39,497 bases of DNA from Escherichia phage Pisces. The notes below the pieces were generated by a model. That model was not told where the DNA came from. It did not search any database and worked only from the letters and a program-made list of their open reading frames with translations. Numbering within the stretch: position 1 is the first letter of the stretch; each line of letters begins with the position of its first letter. A program made the position numbers and the translations under genes. Positions 1 to 39,497 of the stretch are shown here, in pieces. The stretch lies in the sequence record MK903277.1; one strand, 5' to 3'.

Positions 1-180
1 TCTCACAGTTCAAGAACCTCAAGTCTCCCCCATAGGCCTCTTTCAGTCAGACCAAAGGCCACCACCCCAGTGACCAAAGGTCAAACCTCAAGTCTTTGAC
101 CCAAGGTTGGCCCAAAGTCTGGACCGATAGGGCCTATATCTAGTGGTCAAGACCCAAGGTTAGGACTATATGTTGTGTCC
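1..180 (+). other. Genome left-end region (T7-type terminus, possible terminal repeat copy)
   Basis: Begins TCTCACAG as the T7 left end does; rich in short CAAGGT/CAAGTC motifs; no second copy at the right end of the window, so terminal-repeat length cannot be verified. Confidence 0.4.
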
Positions 181-201
181 CTGAGTCTCTATCTGTATCA
201 G

Positions 202-253
202 CCTCAAGTCATCACCTCAAGTCATCACCTCAAGTCATCACCTACAGTCTCAG
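202..253 (+). repeat. Tandem 13-bp repeat CCTCAAGTCATCA x3 plus a degenerate fourth unit
   Basis: Three perfect direct units at 202-214, 215-227 and 228-240, then CCTACAGTCTCAG; analogous in position to the T7 post-terminal-repeat CCTAAAG repeat array. Confidence 0.8.
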
Positions 254-527
254 ACCATCGGTAAAGCCATCACCTACAGTCAAAGACCTACGGTCCGGTA
301 GACACTCAGATTGACCTATCGTTTATCAGAGACCTTAGGTCTAGTCTCACAGGTTATCGTTATAGTCTCTATTTAGCAGTCAGGGAGACTATCAGTCTGA
401 CTAGGGTTATTGTTGGTGTCTACCAACTGGACTCTTATTATCCATAGTCAGGGCTTAAAGTCAATCATCTGTAGTCGTTATTGGTCTACCTTATATAGTC
501 ACTGGACTACTGTATAAATTAACACTA

Positions 528-557
528 TTGACGTTTAGTCTGACCTATGAGACTATA
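528..557 (+). promoter_or_regulatory. Host sigma70-type early promoter (T7 A1-like)
   Basis: TTGACG (528-533), 17-nt spacer, GACTAT (551-556); sequence and spacing closely parallel T7 A1 TTGACT-17-GATACT as I recall it. Confidence 0.6.
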
Positions 558-676
558 GCTTCCGTCAACACGACACGGCAAACACCGGATAGTAGCGACA
601 CCGGGTCACACGGTTAAGTAGACAGCCTGATAAGTCATACGAACAACAGGCAGTGACGAGAAGTGAAACAAAACGC

Positions 677-706
677 TTGACAAGATGTACCGGCTTAACG
701 TAGTAT
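677..706 (+). promoter_or_regulatory. Host sigma70-type early promoter (T7 A3-like)
   Basis: TTGACA (677-682), 17-18 nt spacer, TAGTAT, followed by GTACCACAT as in T7 A3; flanking GTGAAACAAAACG also conserved. Confidence 0.55.
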
Positions 707-832
707 GTACCACATCGAAACAACGGTGAGGCCCAACACTGAAACGGGATAGCGAGGCGACGACAGCTAAGCGAATGCTCTTTAACAATCTGGATAACTC
801 TTAATGTGCGCCGATAGTAAGCGATTAACTAC

Positions 833-900
833 AGGGCCTTGAGTCTACCGCGAGACGGGCTTGACTTGAGCGACTCAGGGTCCTGACTGATAGTCACTTA
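833..900 (+). promoter_or_regulatory. Leader hairpin / putative RNase III processing site upstream of gene 0.3
   Basis: Imperfect inverted repeat GGGCCTTGAGTC...GACTCAGGGTCC, followed by CCTGACTGATAGTCACTTAA, a 20-nt element repeated at 1807-1826. Confidence 0.35.
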
Positions 901-921
901 ACCAACTAAAGGATAAACATC

Positions 922-1386
922 ATGATTTACACTAATGAACAAGCTAACGTATTCTACGTGTATCTGACCGCATATCGCAGCATTAACCTGTACGCAATCA
1001 ACGAGATACTCACCAAAGAGATGGCCGCACGTATCAAGAAACATCCGGGCTTCTACGGGTCTCTCATCAATCAGAACGTTGAGGGCTGCTACCATGAGGC
1101 TGGCGTAGGTCTGCCGAGCGTAGAGCGCACACTGGTAGTTAAATGCACTAAGCTGTCACAGGTCGCTGAGCTGACACGTCTGGCTTGCGAGGACTACGAC
1201 CAAGACGCAGTGTTGCAAGTTAACTCTCAGACTCATACGGCGATACTCAATAGCCTTGAGACGGTGGGCGAATACCCTCAGTCTTACAAGCGCATCAAAG
1301 AGGAGACCATAGGCACCTTCACTAAGCAAGACACCGGGTCTGAGATGTACAGCATCGTCAACGGTGAACGCTGGGAGGTGGCCTAA
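922..1386 (+). CDS. S-adenosyl-L-methionine hydrolase (T3 gene 0.3-type anti-restriction protein)
   Basis: 154 aa; N-terminus MIYTNEQANVFYV and internal blocks (GCYHEA, LACEDYDQD, QTHTA) resemble T3 SAMase as I recall it; first gene after early promoters; SD AAAGGA. Confidence 0.65.
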   Translation: MIYTNEQANVFYVYLTAYRSINLYAINEILTKEMAARIKKHPGFYGSLINQNVEGCYHEAGVGLPSVERTLVVKCTKLSQVAELTRLACEDYDQDAVLQVNSQTHTAILNSLETVGEYPQSYKRIKEETIGTFTKQDTGSEMYSIVNGERWEVA

Positions 1387-1455
1387 TGTCCTACGAACAG
1401 TGGGAAGACGGAATGTATTACTTAGAGTGGCTGTATCGAAACGCGAGAGGGTAAC

Positions 1456-1776
1456 ATGATTGCATATAAAATCTTCAGAATCCGTAAGGATGGGACGCTG
1501 GGCGCTTTATTCATCAACCGTAAGGCGGTGATTGAGATAGGCGAGTGGTATGAGGCTGAAAGTCATCCGACTAAGGGTTTCGCCTATCGTCCGGGCTGGC
1601 ACTGTACCTTTGAGCAGAATGCACCGCATCTCAAGCTAGACCTGAAGTCTGGTGAGCGCCGGGCATGGTTTAAGGTCGAGGTGGAGGATATAACCACGTA
1701 TGACAGGCCTGAGTCTCAAGGTGGGGCGTGGGTACTGGCTCAGCGTCTCCGGGTACTAGAGCAAGTCTCAGAGTGA
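1456..1776 (+). CDS. Hypothetical early protein (106 aa)
   Basis: ORF with SD GAGAGGGT 3 nt upstream of ATG; occupies the gene 0.4-0.6 position; no recognisable motif. Confidence 0.5.
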   Translation: MIAYKIFRIRKDGTLGALFINRKAVIEIGEWYEAESHPTKGFAYRPGWHCTFEQNAPHLKLDLKSGERRAWFKVEVEDITTYDRPESQGGAWVLAQRLRVLEQVSE

Positions 1777-1788
1777 TAGACTACAGGT

Positions 1789-1826
1789 CTCTTGAGCGAG
1801 AGGCCTGACTGATTGTCACTTAATCA
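1789..1826 (+). promoter_or_regulatory. Leader hairpin / putative RNase III site upstream of gene 0.7
   Basis: CAGGTCTC...GAGAGGCCTG inverted repeat, followed by CCTGACTGATTGTCACTTAA (near-identical to 881-900). Confidence 0.35.
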
Positions 1827-1843
1827 CATAAGGAAACAACTGT

Positions 1844-2578
1844 ATGAACGCACACGATAAAGTAATCATGAACAACCTGATGTCTCAGCTTCACGCTATC
1901 ATCTGCGAGGAGTGCTACAAGATTGAGGACTCAAGCGCTGGGATTGCAGGTCAACCGCGCTGGGGAGCCTTCGAGATACTGGCTAAAGAGCATGGCTACA
2001 AGCTGTTAGGTCTGGGACACTTCGCCGCTGCCTTTGAGCATGAGGACCTGCCGGGCTACGCTATCAAGGTGGGCTTTAAGAAGGACGACTCAGGCGCTGC
2101 ATATGCGGCCTTCTGCCGAGAGAATGAAGGTCTGCCGGGACTGCCAGTCATTCATCTGGTCAAGCGCTTCAGCAGGGCCTACATGGTGGCTATGGATAAA
2201 TACCGCTCACTGAATGACATCGGCGGGAACTACTGCCGGGAGGGTGCAACCTACGAACAGCGAGTCTTAAACGTGTCGTGGCGTGTAGTCAACGCGATAA
2301 TAGACCAGTGCGAGCAACCATCTGAAGCGCTAAGCTGGTGGCTGGACCAAGATGCGCGGGCTGAGTTTGCACACGTCGAGACTCAGTACATCAAAGACCT
2401 TGCGCAGACTGCTAAGAAGATTAACAGCTTCTTCTACGGGCTGGCATCATTCGACACTCACCGCGCTAACGTGATGGTCGATAACAACGGGCGACTGATA
2501 ATCACTGACCCGGTGTCTTGGACCGCAAGCGACCATCAAGACGAGATGCAGGGTAAACTGAATGCAATAGCCGAGTGA
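1844..2578 (+). CDS. Gene 0.7-like serine/threonine protein kinase, kinase domain only
   Basis: 244 aa; block AIKVGFKKDDSGAAYAAFCR matches T7 gp0.7 [26 protein letters not shown] motif conserved; lacks the roughly 115-aa C-terminal host shut-off part present in T7. Confidence 0.8.
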   Translation: MNAHDKVIMNNLMSQLHAIICEECYKIEDSSAGIAGQPRWGAFEILAKEHGYKLLGLGHFAAAFEHEDLPGYAIKVGFKKDDSGAAYAAFCRENEGLPGLPVIHLVKRFSRAYMVAMDKYRSLNDIGGNYCREGATYEQRVLNVSWRVVNAIIDQCEQPSEALSWWLDQDARAEFAHVETQYIKDLAQTAKKINSFFYGLASFDTHRANVMVDNNGRLIITDPVSWTASDHQDEMQGKLNAIAE

Positions 2579-2732
2579 TAGGCGAGAGGCCACTACATCT
2601 AGTGGTCTCAAAGATTATTACTCACAACATATAGAGGTGAACTATGAACATTGGTTACTGGGTGTGCCTTACTCCGGTCATCTTTCTGATAGCTTTCGGT
2701 CTTCTGGATGCAATCAAGAGAGGGTCTTTCTA

Positions 2733-2927
2733 ATGGCTTGGGCACTTCTGGTCATCGGCTACGGGTTAATACTCGCAGTCATCACGAAAGACATCATCAA
2801 GGCACGTAAAGTCTACCGCTTCCAGTATGTATCACTGGGCCGCTGGACTGTAAGGCAACCAAACGGACGCTTTATGCGCAACCTCGCAAACGTCTGGGAT
2901 ATAGCAACATTAGGGAGTAAACTGTAA
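2733..2927 (+). CDS. Small membrane protein (64 aa)
   Basis: ATG at 2733 overlaps upstream stop (TAATG); N-terminal hydrophobic helix WALLVIGYGLILAVI followed by a basic tail; the ORF track's GTG start at 2637 is less likely. Confidence 0.4.
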   Translation: MAWALLVIGYGLILAVITKDIIKARKVYRFQYVSLGRWTVRQPNGRFMRNLANVWDIATLGSKL

Positions 2928-3253
2928 TGAGCAAATCTTATGGCATCAACTTGGTTCACGCACTAGACGCCGACCTCAATCTGCTTTCATCACTGGCTAC
3001 AGGCTACCGACACGGGACCTCACGTCACACCGTTCGTCAACAGCAGGAGCGCGACCGGGTACTGCAAGCAAGACTCCGGGCCGAGGGCAATAAGGCCGAG
3101 CTGATGTGTCTGGCCTACGGTGGGCGACCACGCACTGACGATGGTAAACTTCTGGTCTCAGGCTGGAGGGCGATAGACCAGCGGTCAGACATCAAGCACA
3201 CGACCAAAGGTGACTTCAGTCATCTCCACGCTAACCCACTGATATGCAAGTAG
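2927..3253 (+). CDS. Hypothetical basic protein (108 aa)
   Basis: ATG overlaps previous stop (TAATG), SD AGGGAG upstream; Arg/Gln-rich; immediately upstream of the RNA polymerase gene. Confidence 0.5.
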   Translation: MSKSYGINLVHALDADLNLLSSLATGYRHGTSRHTVRQQQERDRVLQARLRAEGNKAELMCLAYGGRPRTDDGKLLVSGWRAIDQRSDIKHTTKGDFSHLHANPLICK

Positions 3254-3260
3254 TTTGGAC

Positions 3261-3330
3261 TAAACTATCACTAAAGGACTCAAGGTCGAAAGACTCTAAG
3301 TCAGGACTGAAGTGAAAGACTTTAGTGATA
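3261..3330 (+). promoter_or_regulatory. Promoter-like element inside a long hairpin upstream of the RNAP gene (R1-like processing site)
   Basis: TAAACTATCACTAAAGG (3261-3277) differs from the phage promoter consensus at -2; TATCACTAAAG (3266-3276) is the exact reverse complement of CTTTAGTGATA (3319-3329). Confidence 0.4.
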
Positions 3331-3356
3331 AGACAACAGTTATAAGGACTTTAAGT

Positions 3357-6038
3357 ATGAGCGTCATCTCAATTGACAAGCACGACTTCTCTGATGTGTC
3401 GAATGCAATCGAGCCATTCAACGTACTGGCTGACCACTACGGTCAGGACCTAGCAGTAAAACAGCTTCAGCTTGAGCATGAGGCGTACACTGAAGGCGAG
3501 CGACGTTTCATCAAGAACCTTGAGCGCCAAGCTGAGCGCGGGGAGCTGGCAGACAATCAGGTCGCCAAGCCACTGATGCAAACTCTGGTCCCGACCATCG
3601 CCAAGGCTGTTCGTGAGTGGCACGAAGGCCCGGACGGTAAGTCCTCGACCTCTCGCCCAAGCGTAGCGTTTACCATGCTGAGCACTGACGAGAAGGCTGT
3701 CAAAGACCGCTCTCTGCGAATCTCTGCTGAGTCTGCTGCGGTCATCATACTGAAAGTCATCCTCAGCAAGCTGGTCAAGCCTGAGGGAATCCCGATAACG
3801 CCGATGGCCTCCGCGATTGGTCGCACACTTGAAGATGAAATCCGCTTCGGTCGCATCCGTGAGCAGGAGCAGGAGCACTTCAAGAAGACCATAGCTGAGA
3901 ACCTGAAGAAACGTGCAGGAGCAAGCTACAAGAAAGCCTACATGCAAGCGGTCGAAGCCTCCATGCTGGAGCAAGGGAAACTGGCTGACGCTTGGGGGAC
4001 TTGGAGTCCGACCGAGGCGGTACACGTAGGCATCAAGATGCTGGAGCTGGTCATCCAGTCCTCGCAACTGGTCGAACTGAAGCGCTACGGTGCAGGTAAC
4101 GCTGCGGCAGACGTCGAGATGGTCCACCTGTCAGACTTCTGGGTCAAGAAGATGTCGCAACGTGGCTTCTCACTGGCTGGCATCGCTCCGGTCTACCAAC
4201 CTTGCGTCGTTCCACCTAAGCCGTGGACCGGGGTCGTGGGTGGTGGGTACTGGGCTAAGGGCCGAAGACCTCTCCCGCTGATTCGCTTAGGGTCCAAGGC
4301 TGCGGTCCAGCGCTACGAAGACGTGTACATGCCCGAAGTCTACGAGGCAGTGAATATCATCCAGCAGACACCTTGGAAGGTGAACAAGAAGGTGCTGGAC
4401 GTGGTGAACATGGTCGAGAAGCTGAACAACACGCCTATCGCTGACATCCCTCAGATGGAACCGATGAAGCCTGAAGACTATGCAGGTGAGACCGAGGAAG
4501 AACTCAAAGCGTGGAAGAAAGCCGCTGCTGGTATCTATCGACGCGAGAAGGCCCGACAGTCCCGCCGTTTGTCCCTGAGCTTCATCGTCGGACAGGCGAA
4601 CAAGTTCTCTCAGTTCAAGGCCATCTGGTTCCCATACAACATGGACTGGCGCGGTCGAGTCTATGCGGTCCCGATGTTCAACCCTCAGGGTAACGACATG
4701 CAGAAGGGTCTGCTGACTCTGGCAGTAGGCAAGCCAATCGGTGCGGATGGCTTCAAGTGGCTGAAGGTCCACGGTGCAAACTGCGCTGGTGTCGATAAAG
4801 TCACCTTCGAGGAGCGCATCAAGTGGGTCGAAGACAACCACGACAACATCCTCGCGGCTGCTAAGAGTCCGATGGATAGCATTGACTGGTGGGGTCAGTT
4901 AGACTCTCCGTTCTGCTTCCTCGCGTTCTGCTTCGAGTATGCTGGAGTCATGCACCACGGGCTGAGCTACTCCTGCTCACTGCCTATCGCGTTCGATGGG
5001 TCCTGCTCTGGGATTCAGCACTTCAGCGCGATGCTTCGTGACCACGTTGGTGGACATGCGGTCAACCTGACGCCAAGCGGTAAGGTCCAAGACATCTACC
5101 GCATTGTGTCCGACCGGGTGGAAGAACAGCTTAAGGAGCTGCTGGTCAACGGTAGTGACAACGAAGTCAAGACCTTCGAGGACAAGAAGACGGGCGAGAT
5201 TACTGAACGTCTGGTCCTTGGAACTCGCGAGCTGGCCCGTCAGTGGCTGACCTACGGGATGTCACGCTCGGTCACTAAACGCTCGGTCATGACTCTGGCC
5301 TATGGGTCGAAGGAATACGGGTTCGCGGACCAAGTGTTTGAGGACACCGTGATGCCAGCGATTGACAGCGGCAAGGGCGCGATGTTCACGGACCCAAGCC
5401 AAGCGTCACGCTTCATGGCTAAGATGATTTGGGATGCGGTAAGCGTGACCGTAGTTGCTGCGGTAGACGCGATGAAGTGGCTGCAAGGCGCTGCTAAACT
5501 GCTGGCTGCTGAGGTCAAGGACAAGAAGACCAAAGAGGTCCTGAAGCCTTGCCTCCCGGTTCACTGGGTCACACCTGATGGCTTCCCGGTCTGGCAGGAG
5601 TACCGCAAGAAAGACACCACACGCCTGAACCTCCTATTCCTTGGGTCGTTCAACCTGCAACCGACAGTCAACAAAGGGTCGAAGAAAGAGCTGGACAAGC
5701 ACAAGCAGGAGTCCGGCATCAGTCCTAACTTCGTACACTCACAGGATGGCAGTCACCTGAGGAAGACTGTAGTCCACACCCACCGCAAGTACGGCGTGAT
5801 GTCCTTCGCAGTGATTCACGATAGCTTCGGGACCATCCCGGCTGACGCTGAGTTCCTGTTCAAAGGCGTCCGTGAGACGATGGTTGAGACCTACCGCGAC
5901 AACGATGTGCTGCAAGACTTCTACGAGCAGTTCGCGGACCAGCTTCACGAGAGCCAGCGCGATAAGTTGCCTGAGCTGCCGAAGCGCGGTAAACTGAACA
6001 TTGAAGACATTCTGTTATCTGACTTTGCATTCGCCTGA
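3357..6038 (+). CDS. Single-subunit DNA-directed RNA polymerase (T7 gene 1 homologue)
   Basis: 893 aa from ATG 3357 (the ORF track's 3312 start is probably too early); strong collinear similarity to T7 RNAP including the specificity-loop region and C-terminal FAFA. Confidence 0.95.
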   Translation: MSVISIDKHDFSDVSNAIEPFNVLADHYGQDLAVKQLQLEHEAYTEGERRFIKNLERQAERGELADNQVAKPLMQTLVPTIAKAVREWHEGPDGKSSTSRPSVAFTMLSTDEKAVKDRSLRISAESAAVIILKVILSKLVKPEGIPITPMASAIGRTLEDEIRFGRIREQEQEHFKKTIAENLKKRAGASYKKAYMQAVEASMLEQGKLADAWGTWSPTEAVHVGIKMLELVIQSSQLVELKRYGAGNAAADVEMVHLSDFWVKKMSQRGFSLAGIAPVYQPCVVPPKPWTGVVGGGYWAKGRRPLPLIRLGSKAAVQRYEDVYMPEVYEAVNIIQQTPWKVNKKVLDVVNMVEKLNNTPIADIPQMEPMKPEDYAGETEEELKAWKKAAAGIYRREKARQSRRLSLSFIVGQANKFSQFKAIWFPYNMDWRGRVYAVPMFNPQGNDMQKGLLTLAVGKPIGADGFKWLKVHGANCAGVDKVTFEERIKWVEDNHDNILAAAKSPMDSIDWWGQLDSPFCFLAFCFEYAGVMHHGLSYSCSLPIAFDGSCSGIQHFSAMLRDHVGGHAVNLTPSGKVQDIYRIVSDRVEEQLKELLVNGSDNEVKTFEDKKTGEITERLVLGTRELARQWLTYGMSRSVTKRSVMTLAYGSKEYGFADQVFEDTVMPAIDSGKGAMFTDPSQASRFMAKMIWDAVSVTVVAAVDAMKWLQGAAKLLAAEVKDKKTKEVLKPCLPVHWVTPDGFPVWQEYRKKDTTRLNLLFLGSFNLQPTVNKGSKKELDKHKQESGISPNFVHSQDGSHLRKTVVHTHRKYGVMSFAVIHDSFGTIPADAEFLFKGVRETMVETYRDNDVLQDFYEQFADQLHESQRDKLPELPKRGKLNIEDILLSDFAFA

Positions 6039-6798: not shown

Positions 6799-6815
6799 AC
6801 TATCACTATAGGATT
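6796..6815 (+). promoter_or_regulatory. Phage RNAP promoter (phi1.1-like)
   Basis: TAAACTATCACTATAGGATT matches the repeated promoter consensus. Confidence 0.75.
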
Positions 6816-6862
6816 AGACTCAAGGTCATGACTCAAAGTCGTGGCCTTCATGATTAACCCTA
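6816..6862 (+). promoter_or_regulatory. Putative RNase III processing hairpin (R1.1-like)
   Basis: AGACTCAAGGTCATGAC...GTCGTGGCCTTCATGATTAA; imperfect stem with G-U wobbles; one of a four-member motif family. Confidence 0.45.
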
Positions 6863-6886
6863 ACTCATTCAATCAGGAGCTACACC

Positions 6887-11737: not shown

Positions 11738-13444
<1,707 letters not shown>

Positions 13445-13617: not shown

Positions 13618-13635
13618 GCTATCACTGTAGGATAG
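13615..13635 (+). promoter_or_regulatory. Phage RNAP promoter (phi4.7-like)
   Basis: TAAGCTATCACTGTAGGATAG. Confidence 0.55.
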
Positions 13636-13680
13636 ACTCAAGGTCATTCACTTCGAGTGGCCTTTATGATTAGACTATAG
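13636..13680 (+). promoter_or_regulatory. Putative RNase III processing hairpin (R4.7-like)
   Basis: ACTCAAGGTCATTCACTTCGAGTGGCCTTTATGATTAGA, a member of the AGACTCAAGGTC...GGCCTT(T/C)ATGATTA family. Confidence 0.45.
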
Positions 13681-20496: not shown

Positions 20497-20510
20497 CTAT
20501 CACTATAGGA
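20493..20510 (+). promoter_or_regulatory. Phage RNAP promoter (phi9-like)
   Basis: TTAACTATCACTATAGGA overlapping the portal stop codon. Confidence 0.7.
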
Positions 20511-20565
20511 ACAACAGGTCAGACTCTTGGCCTGTTACCTATTAACTTTAAGACAGGAGGACTTA

Positions 20566-21478: not shown

Positions 21479-21581
21479 CCAAGAGTAGAGACTCAAGGTT
21501 TCCCTGTAACTTCAGTCCATACGGATTGGGCATAACGAAGTCACTAAACTTTATCTTTCATTCGAATAGGAGAATTATCAT

Positions 21582-38804: not shown

Positions 38805-38900
38805 CCTAATGAATAACTATGGGTGAATACTGCATGAATAAGCGGTTAGTAACCCATAGTTACTAGTGGTCTAACTCTATGATTCTAAAGGCTTTTGGAC

Positions 38901-39256: not shown

Positions 39257-39299
39257 CGCCATAATGGTAACAATCAACGAGCGTAAGACCTAAGGTCAG

Positions 39300-39497
39300 T
39301 ACGTGGGATAAACCCTCCACTCTACTGACCTTAGCTACTGTAGTCAAGGACTTTAGGTAACACCTTAATAGAAGCTCACTTAGGGTCTATCCACTTATGG
39401 TCTCACCCTAGTGTCGCCTGACCTACGGTCCTTGACCTACAGTGGCTGAGGCCTACAGTAGAGACGATGAGTTTTGGACCAAAAGTTCGAGAGTCCA
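39300..39497 (+). repeat. Right-end region with CCTACRGT-type short repeats
   Basis: GACCTACGGTCC (also at 289-300), CCTACAGT x3; resembles the left-end repeat family, but no copy of the left-end TCTCACAG block. Confidence 0.4.

What the first reader, a model, noticed from the sequence alone, without database searches (positions are those of the whole stretch)
3261..3330. Promoter-like sequence upstream of the polymerase gene embedded in a long hairpin
TAAACTATCACTAAAGG matches the phage promoter except for A at -2, and it lies just upstream of the phage polymerase's own gene, where T7 has no phage promoter. The same bases form the 5' arm of a hairpin (TATCACTAAAG at 3266-3276 pairs with CTTTAGTGATA at 3319-3329), whose stem contains an AGACTCAAGGTC element shared with the putative RNase III sites. 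It could be an RNase III site, a weak autoregulatory promoter or a polymerase-binding decoy.
Basis: seen in the sequence. Interest (0 to 1): 0.45.

Follow-up and report, generated by a model that had tools for sequence, protein, structure and literature searches.

The report
Phage promoter before its own polymerase gene
This K1F-like relative of phage T7 carries a promoter for its own RNA polymerase directly in front of the polymerase gene, which would form a self-amplifying loop; the feature is shared by the whole genus and already annotated in a relative, and this lineage adds a perfect 11-bp hairpin whose function is unproven.

Summary
TAAACTATCACTAAAGG (3261-3277) is the twelfth phage-promoter site in the window, and A at -2 is its only mismatch between -17 and +3. 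It lies 81 nt upstream of the gene 1 (RNA polymerase) ATG at 3357.

Comparison with about 60 Kayfunavirus sequences shows the promoter is conserved at this position. It also follows each phage's own specificity: CTA at -10 to -8 in K1F-type phages, CCC in GW1, EcpYZU01 and Ro103C3lw, whose polymerase specificity loops differ to match. That is strong evidence the site is recognised by the phage polymerase, so the best reading is a positive-feedback promoter for gene 1. The EcoDS1 GenBank record already annotates the homologous site as a 'phi' promoter, and LUZ100 has a mapped analogue. T7, T3, Berlin, Kvp1, EG1, 285P, K11 and SP6 have no such site.

The perfect hairpin and the -2 A always occur together, in one sub-lineage (35 GenBank records). 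Most other relatives, though not EcpYZU01, have an imperfect hairpin there. A covariance model of canonical T7-type RNase III sites does not hit the element, and a canonical site lies at 2571-2625 instead. The hairpin's role remains open: non-canonical processing site, stability element, or a product of palindrome-perfecting mutation.

The parts
3259..3281 (+). Phage RNA polymerase promoter, -17 to +6 (ACTAAACTATCACTAAAGGACTC). +1 is G3276 and -2 is A3274. Its initial transcribed sequence (GGA) resembles the window's GGA-starting (class II-like) promoters.
   Evidence: PWM 23.9 bits, twelfth-ranked site, next best 13.3. The homologous site is present in every Kayfunavirus sampled and switches CTA to CCC with the phage's own promoters and specificity loop. 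The homologue is annotated as promoter 'phi' in EcoDS1.
3266..3276 (+). 5' arm of the 11-bp inverted repeat (TATCACTAAAG, promoter -10 to +1).
   Evidence: pair probabilities 0.73-0.88 in a modelled read-through RNA 3200-3400.
3320..3330 (+). 3' arm of the inverted repeat (CTTTAGTGATA). It is present only in the sub-lineage that also has A at -2.
3277..3302 (+). Small inner stem-loop at the 5' end of the promoter-initiated RNA: GACU/AGUC (3277-3280 with 3299-3302), a 3x3 internal loop, then GGUC/GACU (3284-3287 with 3292-3295) capped by GAAA. It contains the ACTCAAGGTC box shared with RNase III-type sites.
   Evidence: MFE and centroid folds. The GGUC/GAC(U/C) helix is paired in 97.6% of cells across 21 distinct sequences, with two one-sided changes. 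Bases +1 to +12 are nearly invariant.
3344..3359 (+). Shine-Dalgarno-like AAGGA (3344-3348) and the gene 1 start codon ATG (3357-3359). The block is invariant across the genus sample.
3357..6038 (+). Gene 1, T7-like single-subunit RNA polymerase: the gene this promoter would transcribe.
   Evidence: ORF list; 99% identical to IMM-002 RNA polymerase region; specificity loop RLNLLFLGSFNLQPT.
2571..2625 (+). Context: a canonical T7-type RNase III-like hairpin directly after the ORF 1844-2578 (its GW1 counterpart is annotated as a kinase). This is the likely positional homologue of T7/T3 R1, which means the 3261-3330 element is not R1.
   Evidence: Covariance-model hit of 28.3 bits, E 2.7e-4; the site was not in the training set. 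The same arrangement is found in GW1 (with the kinase annotation).

Best explanation
The sequence at 3259-3281 is a genuine promoter for the phage's own T7-like RNA polymerase, and it is the leftmost such promoter in the genome. It starts transcription at G3276, 81 nt upstream of the polymerase gene. Host RNA polymerase makes the first gene 1 mRNA as part of the early transcript. Once some phage polymerase exists, it transcribes its own gene from this promoter, forming a positive-feedback loop. By analogy with T7, the loop would be limited later by the phage lysozyme that inhibits the polymerase (inference).

The promoter is a genus-wide Kayfunavirus feature. This window belongs to a sub-lineage in which -2 is A and a downstream unit has become perfectly complementary to promoter bases -10 to +1. 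The full 11-bp stem can form only in read-through RNA made from upstream, meaning by host polymerase, because RNA started at the promoter lacks the 5' arm. The hairpin is a secondary, lineage-specific layer with no demonstrated function.

Shown: the sequence match, its conservation, its co-variation with polymerase specificity, and the predicted folding. Inferred: initiation in vivo, the feedback loop, and any role for the hairpin.
For: 1. Promoter match. The site is the twelfth and last clear promoter match, at 23.9 bits against 25-38 for the others and 13.3 for the next position. All 12 sites are on the + strand.

2. Conservation. A homologous site sits at the same distance from the gene 1 ATG in all ~60 Kayfunavirus sequences examined, and in most it is a perfect consensus TTAACTATCACTATAGG.

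3. Co-variation with specificity. In GW1 and EcpYZU01 most predicted promoters read ACCCTCACT, and the gene-1 site reads ACCC too; in Ro103C3lw, where only this locus was fetched, the gene-1 site also reads ACCC. In K1F and the window all read ACTATCACT. The polymerases differ at the T7 N748 and R756 equivalents: RLN..FN in K1F and the window, RLD..FR in GW1 and EcpYZU01. These are the residues that contact -11/-10 and -9 (PMC5937735 text).

4. Purifying selection. Diversity is 0.07 over -17 to +6 and about 0.02 over +1 to +12, against 0.25 at third codon positions of the flanking genes.

5. A at -2 is compatible with function. All 11 annotated T3 promoters fetched have A at -2, and GW1's conserved promoter at 21502 reads TCACTAAAGGG.

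6. Nothing blocks transcription into gene 1. The scan found no terminator-like site and no + strand sigma-70-like promoter between 2500 and 3500.

7. Precedent. EcoDS1 annotates the homologue as promoter 'phi', and LUZ100 phi1 is a mapped phage-specific start site directly upstream of its RNAP gene, with positive feedback proposed (PMC10134795).

8. Hairpin. The element folds better than its shuffles in the window type (z -2.68) and the K1F type (z -2.92). The 11-bp stem has about 0.86 pair probability in read-through RNA.
Against: No transcription data exist for any Kayfunavirus in the searchable literature, so initiation at G3276 is inferred. A at -2 is unique among this window's 12 sites and costs 4.5 bits in the PWM, so this lineage's copy could be weaker or even inactive.

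The specificity co-variation rests on two promoter classes, which is essentially one evolutionary switch. Conservation of the block could partly reflect RNA-level functions such as the 5' stem-loop or processing, rather than promoter function alone.
Confidence: 0.7

Rival explanations
1. The hairpin is a non-canonical RNase III processing site for early host-made polycistronic RNA. Cleavage would release gene 1 mRNA and leave a protective 3' hairpin on the upstream message. On this view the promoter-like bases are mainly the 5' strand of that hairpin.
For: The element lies just before gene 1, where T7, T3, Berlin, Kvp1, EG1, 285P and K11 have an R1-type hairpin. It carries the ACUCAAGGUC 5' box of the window's canonical sites. 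Its 3' arm, AGACTTTAGTGATAAGAC, resembles the canonical 3' half GGCCTTTATGATTAGAC (seen in sequence).

The fold is more stable than its shuffles (z -2.7). The T3 record annotates RNase III sites that overlap or contain promoters: R6.5 contains phi6.5, and R3.8 is a plain 11-bp hairpin overlapping phi3.8.
Against: A covariance model built from 10 canonical sites (11 of 18 pairs with compensatory changes) finds five sites in the window. It finds nothing at 3261-3330 with filters off and E up to 10, and nothing upstream of gene 1 in K1F, GW1 or EcpYZU01. The canonical site after the kinase-like ORF is at 2571-2625, so R1 is accounted for.

The 11-bp stem is lineage-specific, and EcpYZU01 folds differently. 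Helix continuity is broken by a 17-nt bulge. Most importantly, this reading does not explain why -10/-9 follow polymerase specificity.
Confidence: 0.25
2. The promoter is real, but the perfect 11-bp inverted repeat has no function. It arose by quasi-palindrome (template-switch) mutation that copied the promoter arm into an already partly complementary downstream unit, and has since hitch-hiked.
For: Compared with the K1F type, the 3' arm differs by one deletion and one insertion 6 nt apart. Together these create TAGTGATA, the exact reverse complement of promoter -10 to -3, as a single templated event would (alignment). The A at -2 and the perfect arm are strictly coupled, with no intermediates seen in about 60 sequences; by BLAST identity, 35 of 193 GenBank records fall with the window type, though their sequences were not read.

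The 5'UTR is made of repeated GACT..AAGTGA units that are inherently complementary to TCACT. Covariation statistics do not exceed the shuffle controls. Predicted SD accessibility is the same with or without the 5' arm (0.66 against 0.61).
Against: Three separate changes all increase complementarity. The arms are invariant across phages whose flanks differ by up to about 12% (LET1, SalP792, IME278), while the enclosed region has several substitutions. The sample is too small for that contrast to be significant.
Confidence: 0.35
3. The site binds phage polymerase without productive initiation, acting as a decoy or roadblock that titrates the polymerase or blocks host polymerase read-through into gene 1.
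For: A at -2 is unique among the window's 12 sites.
Against: Most relatives have the perfect consensus with GG at +1/+2 and a GGA start shared with the window's other class II-like promoters. A at -2 is standard in T3 promoters. Nothing downstream resembles a terminator.
Confidence: 0.05

Closest known systems
Promoter 'phi' annotated upstream of gene 1 in Escherichia phage EcoDS1 (EU734172, 2244-2266), with the same site in K1F and PE3-1
   Same: It is the homologous 23-mer at the same distance from the gene 1 ATG, with the same ACTCAAGGTC start of the transcript and the same SD/ATG block.
   Different: EcoDS1, K1F and PE3-1 have T at -2 and only an imperfect hairpin (UCACU/AGUGA plus short helices). 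The window has A at -2 and a perfect 11-bp stem. The PE3-1 record labels the site 'host RNAP promoter'.
LUZ100 phi1, a phage-specific promoter directly upstream of the phage RNAP gene (PMC10134795)
   Same: A promoter for the phage's own polymerase sits directly in front of the polymerase gene, and the authors propose positive feedback after initial host-polymerase read-through.
   Different: LUZ100 is a distant Pseudomonas phage with temperate features, where the promoter is thought to be gated by a MarR-like repressor. No repressor was looked for here. The LUZ100 start site was mapped experimentally; this one was not.
Promoter-plus-RNase III-site cassettes of T7 and T3 (phi1.1/R1.1, phi3.8/R3.8, phi6.5/R6.5)
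   Same: A phage promoter is followed immediately by, or overlaps, a hairpin carrying the ACUCAAGGUC box. In T3 the annotated R6.5 stem-loop contains the whole phi6.5 promoter, and R3.8 overlaps phi3.8 by 10 nt. The window's own sites at 6807, 13625 and 20503 pair promoter -5 to +2 into their basal stems.
   Different: Here the promoter forms the 5' strand of the basal stem over 11 bp. The canonical 3' half (GGCCUUUAUGAUU) is missing, and the covariance model of canonical sites does not recognise the element.
RNase III site R1 between genes 0.7 and 1 of T7 and T3
   Same: It is a hairpin in the early transcript shortly before gene 1.
   Different: R1 is a canonical site with no phage promoter. 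In the window the canonical R1-like site is at 2571-2625, separated from gene 1 by two small ORFs.

Membership tests
T7-group phage RNA polymerase promoter (23-bp, -17 to +6) | Match to the phage's own promoter consensus, well above the genomic background | tested here: met
   23.9 bits against 25-38 (leave-one-out) for the 11 others and 13.3 for the next best position. The only mismatch from -17 to +3 is A at -2.
T7-group phage RNA polymerase promoter (23-bp, -17 to +6) | Specificity positions (-12 to -8) match the cognate polymerase and change when the polymerase specificity loop changes | tested here: met
   CTA in K1F and the window, CCC in GW1, EcpYZU01 and Ro103C3lw at the gene-1 site, matching the other predicted promoters in the four genomes scanned in full. 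Loop residues are N/N against D/R.
T7-group phage RNA polymerase promoter (23-bp, -17 to +6) | Co-oriented with the genes, intergenic, G at +1 and +2, no terminator before the downstream gene | tested here: met
T7-group phage RNA polymerase promoter (23-bp, -17 to +6) | Transcription initiates at +1 with the cognate polymerase | not testable with these tools
   No transcript data for any Kayfunavirus found.
Canonical T7-type RNase III processing site | Lower stem, internal loop and a roughly 10-bp upper stem, with the conserved CAAGGUC...GGCCUUnAUnAUU halves, scored jointly by a covariance model | tested here: not met
   Model R1 (10 sequences, 18 pairs, 11 with compensatory changes) gives 55-64 bits at its four training sites and 28 bits at the untrained site 2571. 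It gives no hit at 3261-3330 with filters off and E up to 10, and none upstream of gene 1 in K1F, GW1 or EcpYZU01.
Canonical T7-type RNase III processing site | 5' box ACUCAAGGUC | tested here: met
   GGACTCAAGGTC at 3276-3287, one mismatch to the AGACTCAAGGTC of the sites at 6816, 13634 and 36499.
Canonical T7-type RNase III processing site | Cleavage by host RNase III | not testable with these tools
   Needs an in vitro cleavage assay or an rnc+ against rnc- comparison. Simple hairpins such as T3 R3.8 are also annotated as sites, so a non-canonical site cannot be excluded.
Conserved RNA hairpin (structure under selection) | Compensatory base changes that maintain the pairs across relatives | tested here: inconclusive
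   88% of cells are paired, against 30-49% in the slid controls. Only one pair changed on both sides, and the covariation score is not above the shuffles (148 of 500). Pairs 10-81 and 17-72 form in essentially only the 6 window-type rows.
Self-transcribing polymerase gene (phage promoter driving its own RNAP, as at LUZ100 phi1) | Cognate promoter directly upstream of the polymerase gene with an uninterrupted path into it | tested here: met
   +1 is 81 nt upstream of the ATG, and no terminator-like site was found. The sampled phages outside the genus (T7, T3, EG1, Berlin, Kvp1, 285P, K11, SP6) lack it; Vibrio N4's spacer shows no obvious match but was not scanned.

The most novel reading that the evidence does not exclude
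The hairpin needs the promoter bases themselves as its 5' arm, so it would mark only host-made (read-through) gene 1 transcripts. Those could be processed or stabilised at the hairpin, while phage-made transcripts that start at G3276 lack the arm and fold differently. This would give the two sources of polymerase mRNA different fates: a built-in switch between the early phase and the self-amplifying phase, sharpened in this sub-lineage by the -2 A and the perfected stem.
Probability: 0.12. Interest if true: 0.55.

Novelty: new member of a known kind. Interest (0 to 1): 0.3.

Why it matters
T7 makes its polymerase only from host-transcribed early RNA. A conserved promoter for the phage's own polymerase in front of gene 1 means K1F-like phages run a natural positive-feedback loop. 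This bears on the timing of the early-to-middle switch and of genome entry, and on the design of K1F-polymerase expression circuits.

The within-genus switch of this site from CTA to CCC, together with the polymerase loop, is a clean natural example of promoter and polymerase co-evolving. The arrangement itself is already annotated in EcoDS1 and mapped in LUZ100. What this window adds is a lineage-specific variant with a perfect promoter-containing hairpin, plus computational evidence that the site is under selection.

Tried and rejected
- Rfam gathering scan of the whole window: no family matched.
- Sigma-70 promoter and intrinsic terminator scan of 2500-3500: nothing on the + strand. A host promoter like T7's C promoter is therefore not evident, and neither is a terminator role.
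- Convergent promoter on the minus strand formed by the 3' arm: the PWM gives no minus-strand score above -3.4.
- Translational switch idea: predicted SD accessibility is almost the same in read-through and promoter-initiated RNA (0.66 against 0.61; K1F 0.66 against 0.76). Rejected as unsupported.
- Structure covariation: too little variation to decide.
- Search for evolutionary intermediates (A at -2 without the perfect arm, or the reverse): none in IMG/VR, metagenomes or the GenBank samples. Twenty of the 26 IMG/VR hits to the 17-mer 3' arm were an unrelated coding sequence.
- Literature: the K1F genome paper (Scholl and Merril 2005) and Chen and Schneider 2005 are not held in the library, so I could not check what they say about this promoter. 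Papers on T7 promoter variants gave no value for a -2 T-to-A change.
- The fold of 3250-3345 alone was not significantly stable (z -1.31). The exact element 3262-3334 is (z -2.68), so the result depends on the boundaries chosen.

Full report
**What the window is.** The window is a K1F-like member of the T7 group, genus Kayfunavirus. The region 2900-4400 is 99% identical to Escherichia phage IMM-002 and 85-92% identical to about 200 other records. The ORF 3357-6038 is gene 1, the single-subunit RNA polymerase. An in-frame GTG at 3312 accounts for the longer ORF in the mechanical ORF list.

**The observation.** TAAACTATCACTAAAGG lies at 3261-3277. Allowing three mismatches, the motif occurs 12 times, always on the + strand, against 0.06 expected. 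The other 11 sites are intergenic and read TAAACTATCACT(A/G/T)TAGG. A PWM from those 11 (-17 to +6) scores the 3261 site 23.9 bits. The training sites score 25-38 bits leave-one-out, and the next position in the genome scores 13.3. With T7 numbering, +1 is G3276 and the only mismatch between -17 and +3 is A at -2 (3274).

The inverted repeat is real: 3266-3276 and 3320-3330, 11 of 11 complementary, with a 43-nt spacer. The window has three loci with perfect inverted repeats of this size, against 0.6 hits per shuffle. The coincidence with a promoter is what makes this one notable. GGACTCAAGGTC (3276-3287) is one mismatch from the box that heads the canonical RNase III-type hairpins at 6816, 13634 and 36499.

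**Is it a promoter?** The strongest evidence is comparative. I collected the spacer upstream of gene 1 from 24 IMG/VR contigs, 16 metagenome contigs and about a dozen GenBank phages. Every Kayfunavirus has a promoter-like site at the same distance from the ATG. In the majority (K1F, PE3-1, EcoDS1, SH3 and others) it is a perfect consensus, TTAACTATCACTATAGG.

Three lineages in the same genus (GW1, EcpYZU01, Ro103C3lw) have TAAACCCTCACT(A/G)TAGG at that place. Whole-genome scans show that most predicted promoters in GW1 and EcpYZU01 carry ACCCTCACT, a T3-like specificity, while all in K1F and the window carry ACTATCACT. For Ro103C3lw only the locus around gene 1 was fetched.

The polymerases are 85-94% identical overall but differ in the specificity loop. 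K1F and the window read RLNL(L/M)FLGSFNLQPT; GW1 and EcpYZU01 read RLDLMFLGTFRLQPT. These are the equivalents of T7 N748 and R756, which contact -11/-10 and -9 (as summarised in PMC5937735). So the gene-1 site has followed a change in polymerase specificity, as a site that must be recognised by that polymerase would.

Across 45 distinct sequences, nucleotide diversity is 0.07 for -17 to +6 and close to zero for +1 to +12. It is 0.25 at third codon positions of both flanking genes and 0.22 in the middle of the spacer.

A at -2 does not argue against function. All eleven annotated T3 promoters I fetched have A at -2. GW1's conserved promoter at 21502 reads TCACTAAAGGG.

No terminator-like site and no + strand sigma-70-like promoter were found between 2500 and 3500. 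No other phage promoter lies to the left, so this is the first phage promoter in the genome and gene 1 is its first gene.

**Comparison outside the genus.** T7, T3, EG1, Berlin, Kvp1, 285P and K11 have a canonical R1-type hairpin and no phage promoter in the corresponding spacer. SP6 also lacks a phage promoter immediately upstream of its polymerase gene. Vibrio N4's short spacer shows no obvious promoter-like sequence, but I did not scan it against that phage's own consensus.

The arrangement has two precedents. The EcoDS1 GenBank record annotates the homologous 23-mer (2244-2266) as promoter 'phi', while PE3-1 annotates it as 'host RNAP promoter', probably a mislabel. In the distant Pseudomonas phage LUZ100, a phage-specific start site directly upstream of the RNAP gene was mapped, and positive feedback was proposed (PMC10134795).

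**The hairpin.** A at -2 and the 3' arm CTTTAGTGATA always occur together. This holds in the window, IMM-002, Ro45lw, ST57, SalP792, IME278, LET1 and nine environmental contigs. By BLAST identity, 35 GenBank records carry this form at 90% or better over 87 nt, including Dev2 and SFPH2. All sequences with T at -2 have CTTTAAGTGAAAG instead.

Those sequences still fold into a long but imperfect hairpin whose base is UCACU/AGUGA, followed by AGG/CUU, CUC/GAG and GGUCU/AGACC. This fold is predicted for K1F (z = -2.92) and GW1 (z = -1.75). EcpYZU01 folds differently. The window element 3262-3334 folds at -19.2 kcal/mol (z = -2.68). In a modelled read-through RNA (3200-3400) the 11 pairs have probabilities of 0.73-0.88.

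RNA started at G3276 lacks the 5' arm. The model instead predicts a small 5' stem-loop (GACU/AGUC, GGUC/GACU with a GAAA loop) and an alternative ACUGAAGU/ACUUUAGU hairpin. The small GGUC/GAC(U/C) helix is kept in 97.6% of cells, with two one-sided changes.

Formal pair counting on 21 distinct sequences is otherwise uninformative: only one pair changed on both sides, and the scores lie within the shuffle range. Relative to the K1F type, the 3' arm differs by one deletion and one insertion that together create the exact complement of promoter -10 to -3. This is the signature expected of a template-switch 'palindrome-perfecting' mutation. The perfect stem could therefore have a purely mutational origin.

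**Is it an RNase III site?** I built a covariance model from ten canonical sites: four from this window plus the R1 sites of T7, T3, Berlin, Kvp1, EG1 and 285P. Eleven of its 18 pairs show compensatory changes.

With filters off, the model recovers the four window training sites at 55-64 bits. It also finds an untrained site at 2571-2625 (28.3 bits, E 2.7e-4), directly after the ORF 1844-2578, whose GW1 counterpart is annotated as a kinase. It finds nothing at 3261-3330 up to E = 10. In K1F, GW1 and EcpYZU01 it finds the expected sites but none upstream of gene 1.

So the positional homologue of R1 is at 2571-2625, and the element under study is not a canonical T7-type site. It does keep the 5' box, and its 3' arm resembles the canonical 3' half. 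T3 annotators also list non-canonical sites that overlap promoters: R3.8 is a plain 11-bp hairpin, and R6.5 contains phi6.5. Non-canonical processing therefore stays possible; I give it about 0.25.

**Verdict.** Of the three interpretations, the autoregulatory promoter is well supported, though not shown to be 'weak'. The canonical RNase III reading fails its membership test, and the decoy reading has no support.

The promoter is a genus-wide feature that was already annotated in a relative. This window is another member, in a sub-lineage with an A at -2 and a perfected promoter-containing hairpin of unknown significance. I could not read the K1F genome paper, so I cannot say whether the promoter was discussed there.

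Noticed in passing
window 2571-2625 (+): A canonical T7-type RNase III-like hairpin found by the covariance model (28.3 bits, E 2.7e-4) although it was not in the training set. It lies directly after the ORF 1844-2578, whose GW1 counterpart is annotated as a kinase, and is the likely true homologue of T7/T3 R1. GW1 has the same arrangement at 12640-12694.
   Followed up: partly
window 3275-3356 (+): The whole gene 1 5'UTR is tiled by six degenerate 13-15-nt units ARGACTnnAAGTnA, starting at 3275, 3290, 3303, 3317, 3330 and 3344. This is the densest cluster of the motif in the genome. TRF detects only a weak array (3305-3334, period 13, score 39). The units resemble the 5' half of RNase III sites (AAGUGAUAAACUCAAGG in T3 R4.7 and R6.5) and the SD/start region.
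   Followed up: partly
window 3312-3356 (+): An in-frame GTG at 3312, with AGGAC shortly upstream, would add 15 codons to the polymerase in this lineage. In K1F-type sequences the equivalent GTG runs into a stop, so the extension is probably not used.
   Followed up: no
window 38814-38862 and 39290-39334: These are the only two other perfect inverted repeats of at least 11 bp in the window. One lies just upstream of the rightmost promoter (38901). The other is a 12-bp stem that resembles an RNase III-type hairpin near the right end.
   Followed up: no
window 6807-6864, 13625-13680, 20503-20548; L088 (T3) 12136-12207 and 5617-5643: The basal stems of promoter-proximal RNase III-type hairpins regularly pair the promoter's own -5 to +2 bases with a downstream CCTATA-like segment. 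The T3 record annotates R6.5 as containing the whole phi6.5 promoter and R3.8 as overlapping phi3.8 by 10 nt. Full-length stems can therefore exist only in read-through RNA. This seems to be a general design, not something special to the gene 1 site.
   Followed up: partly
L027 (GW1), L028 (EcpYZU01), L053 (Ro103C3lw) against L029 (K1F) and the window: One genus holds two promoter specificities: ACTATCACT and a T3-like ACCCTCACT. The matching specificity-loop changes are N to D and N to R (T7 748 and 756 equivalents), at 85-92% overall polymerase identity between the two groups. This is a compact natural specificity switch.
   Followed up: partly
window 1-3260: There is no phiOL-like phage promoter near the left end, although K11 annotates phiOL at 479. 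The gene 1 promoter is the leftmost phage promoter.
   Followed up: partly
GenBank records OR786095 (Staphylococcus phage MBBL139), PQ520054 (Enterococcus phage IME_EF3), MT350292 (Enterococcus phage EFA-1): These records are named after Gram-positive hosts but carry Kayfunavirus sequence, including this element (79.5-100% identity to it). The host labels look wrong, or the preparations were contaminated.
   Followed up: no
L030 (PE3-1, NC_024379) 2874-2896: The record labels the phage-type 23-mer upstream of gene 1 as 'host RNAP promoter'. The sequence is the phage consensus GACTTAACTATCACTATAGGACT, so the label is probably an annotation slip.
   Followed up: yes
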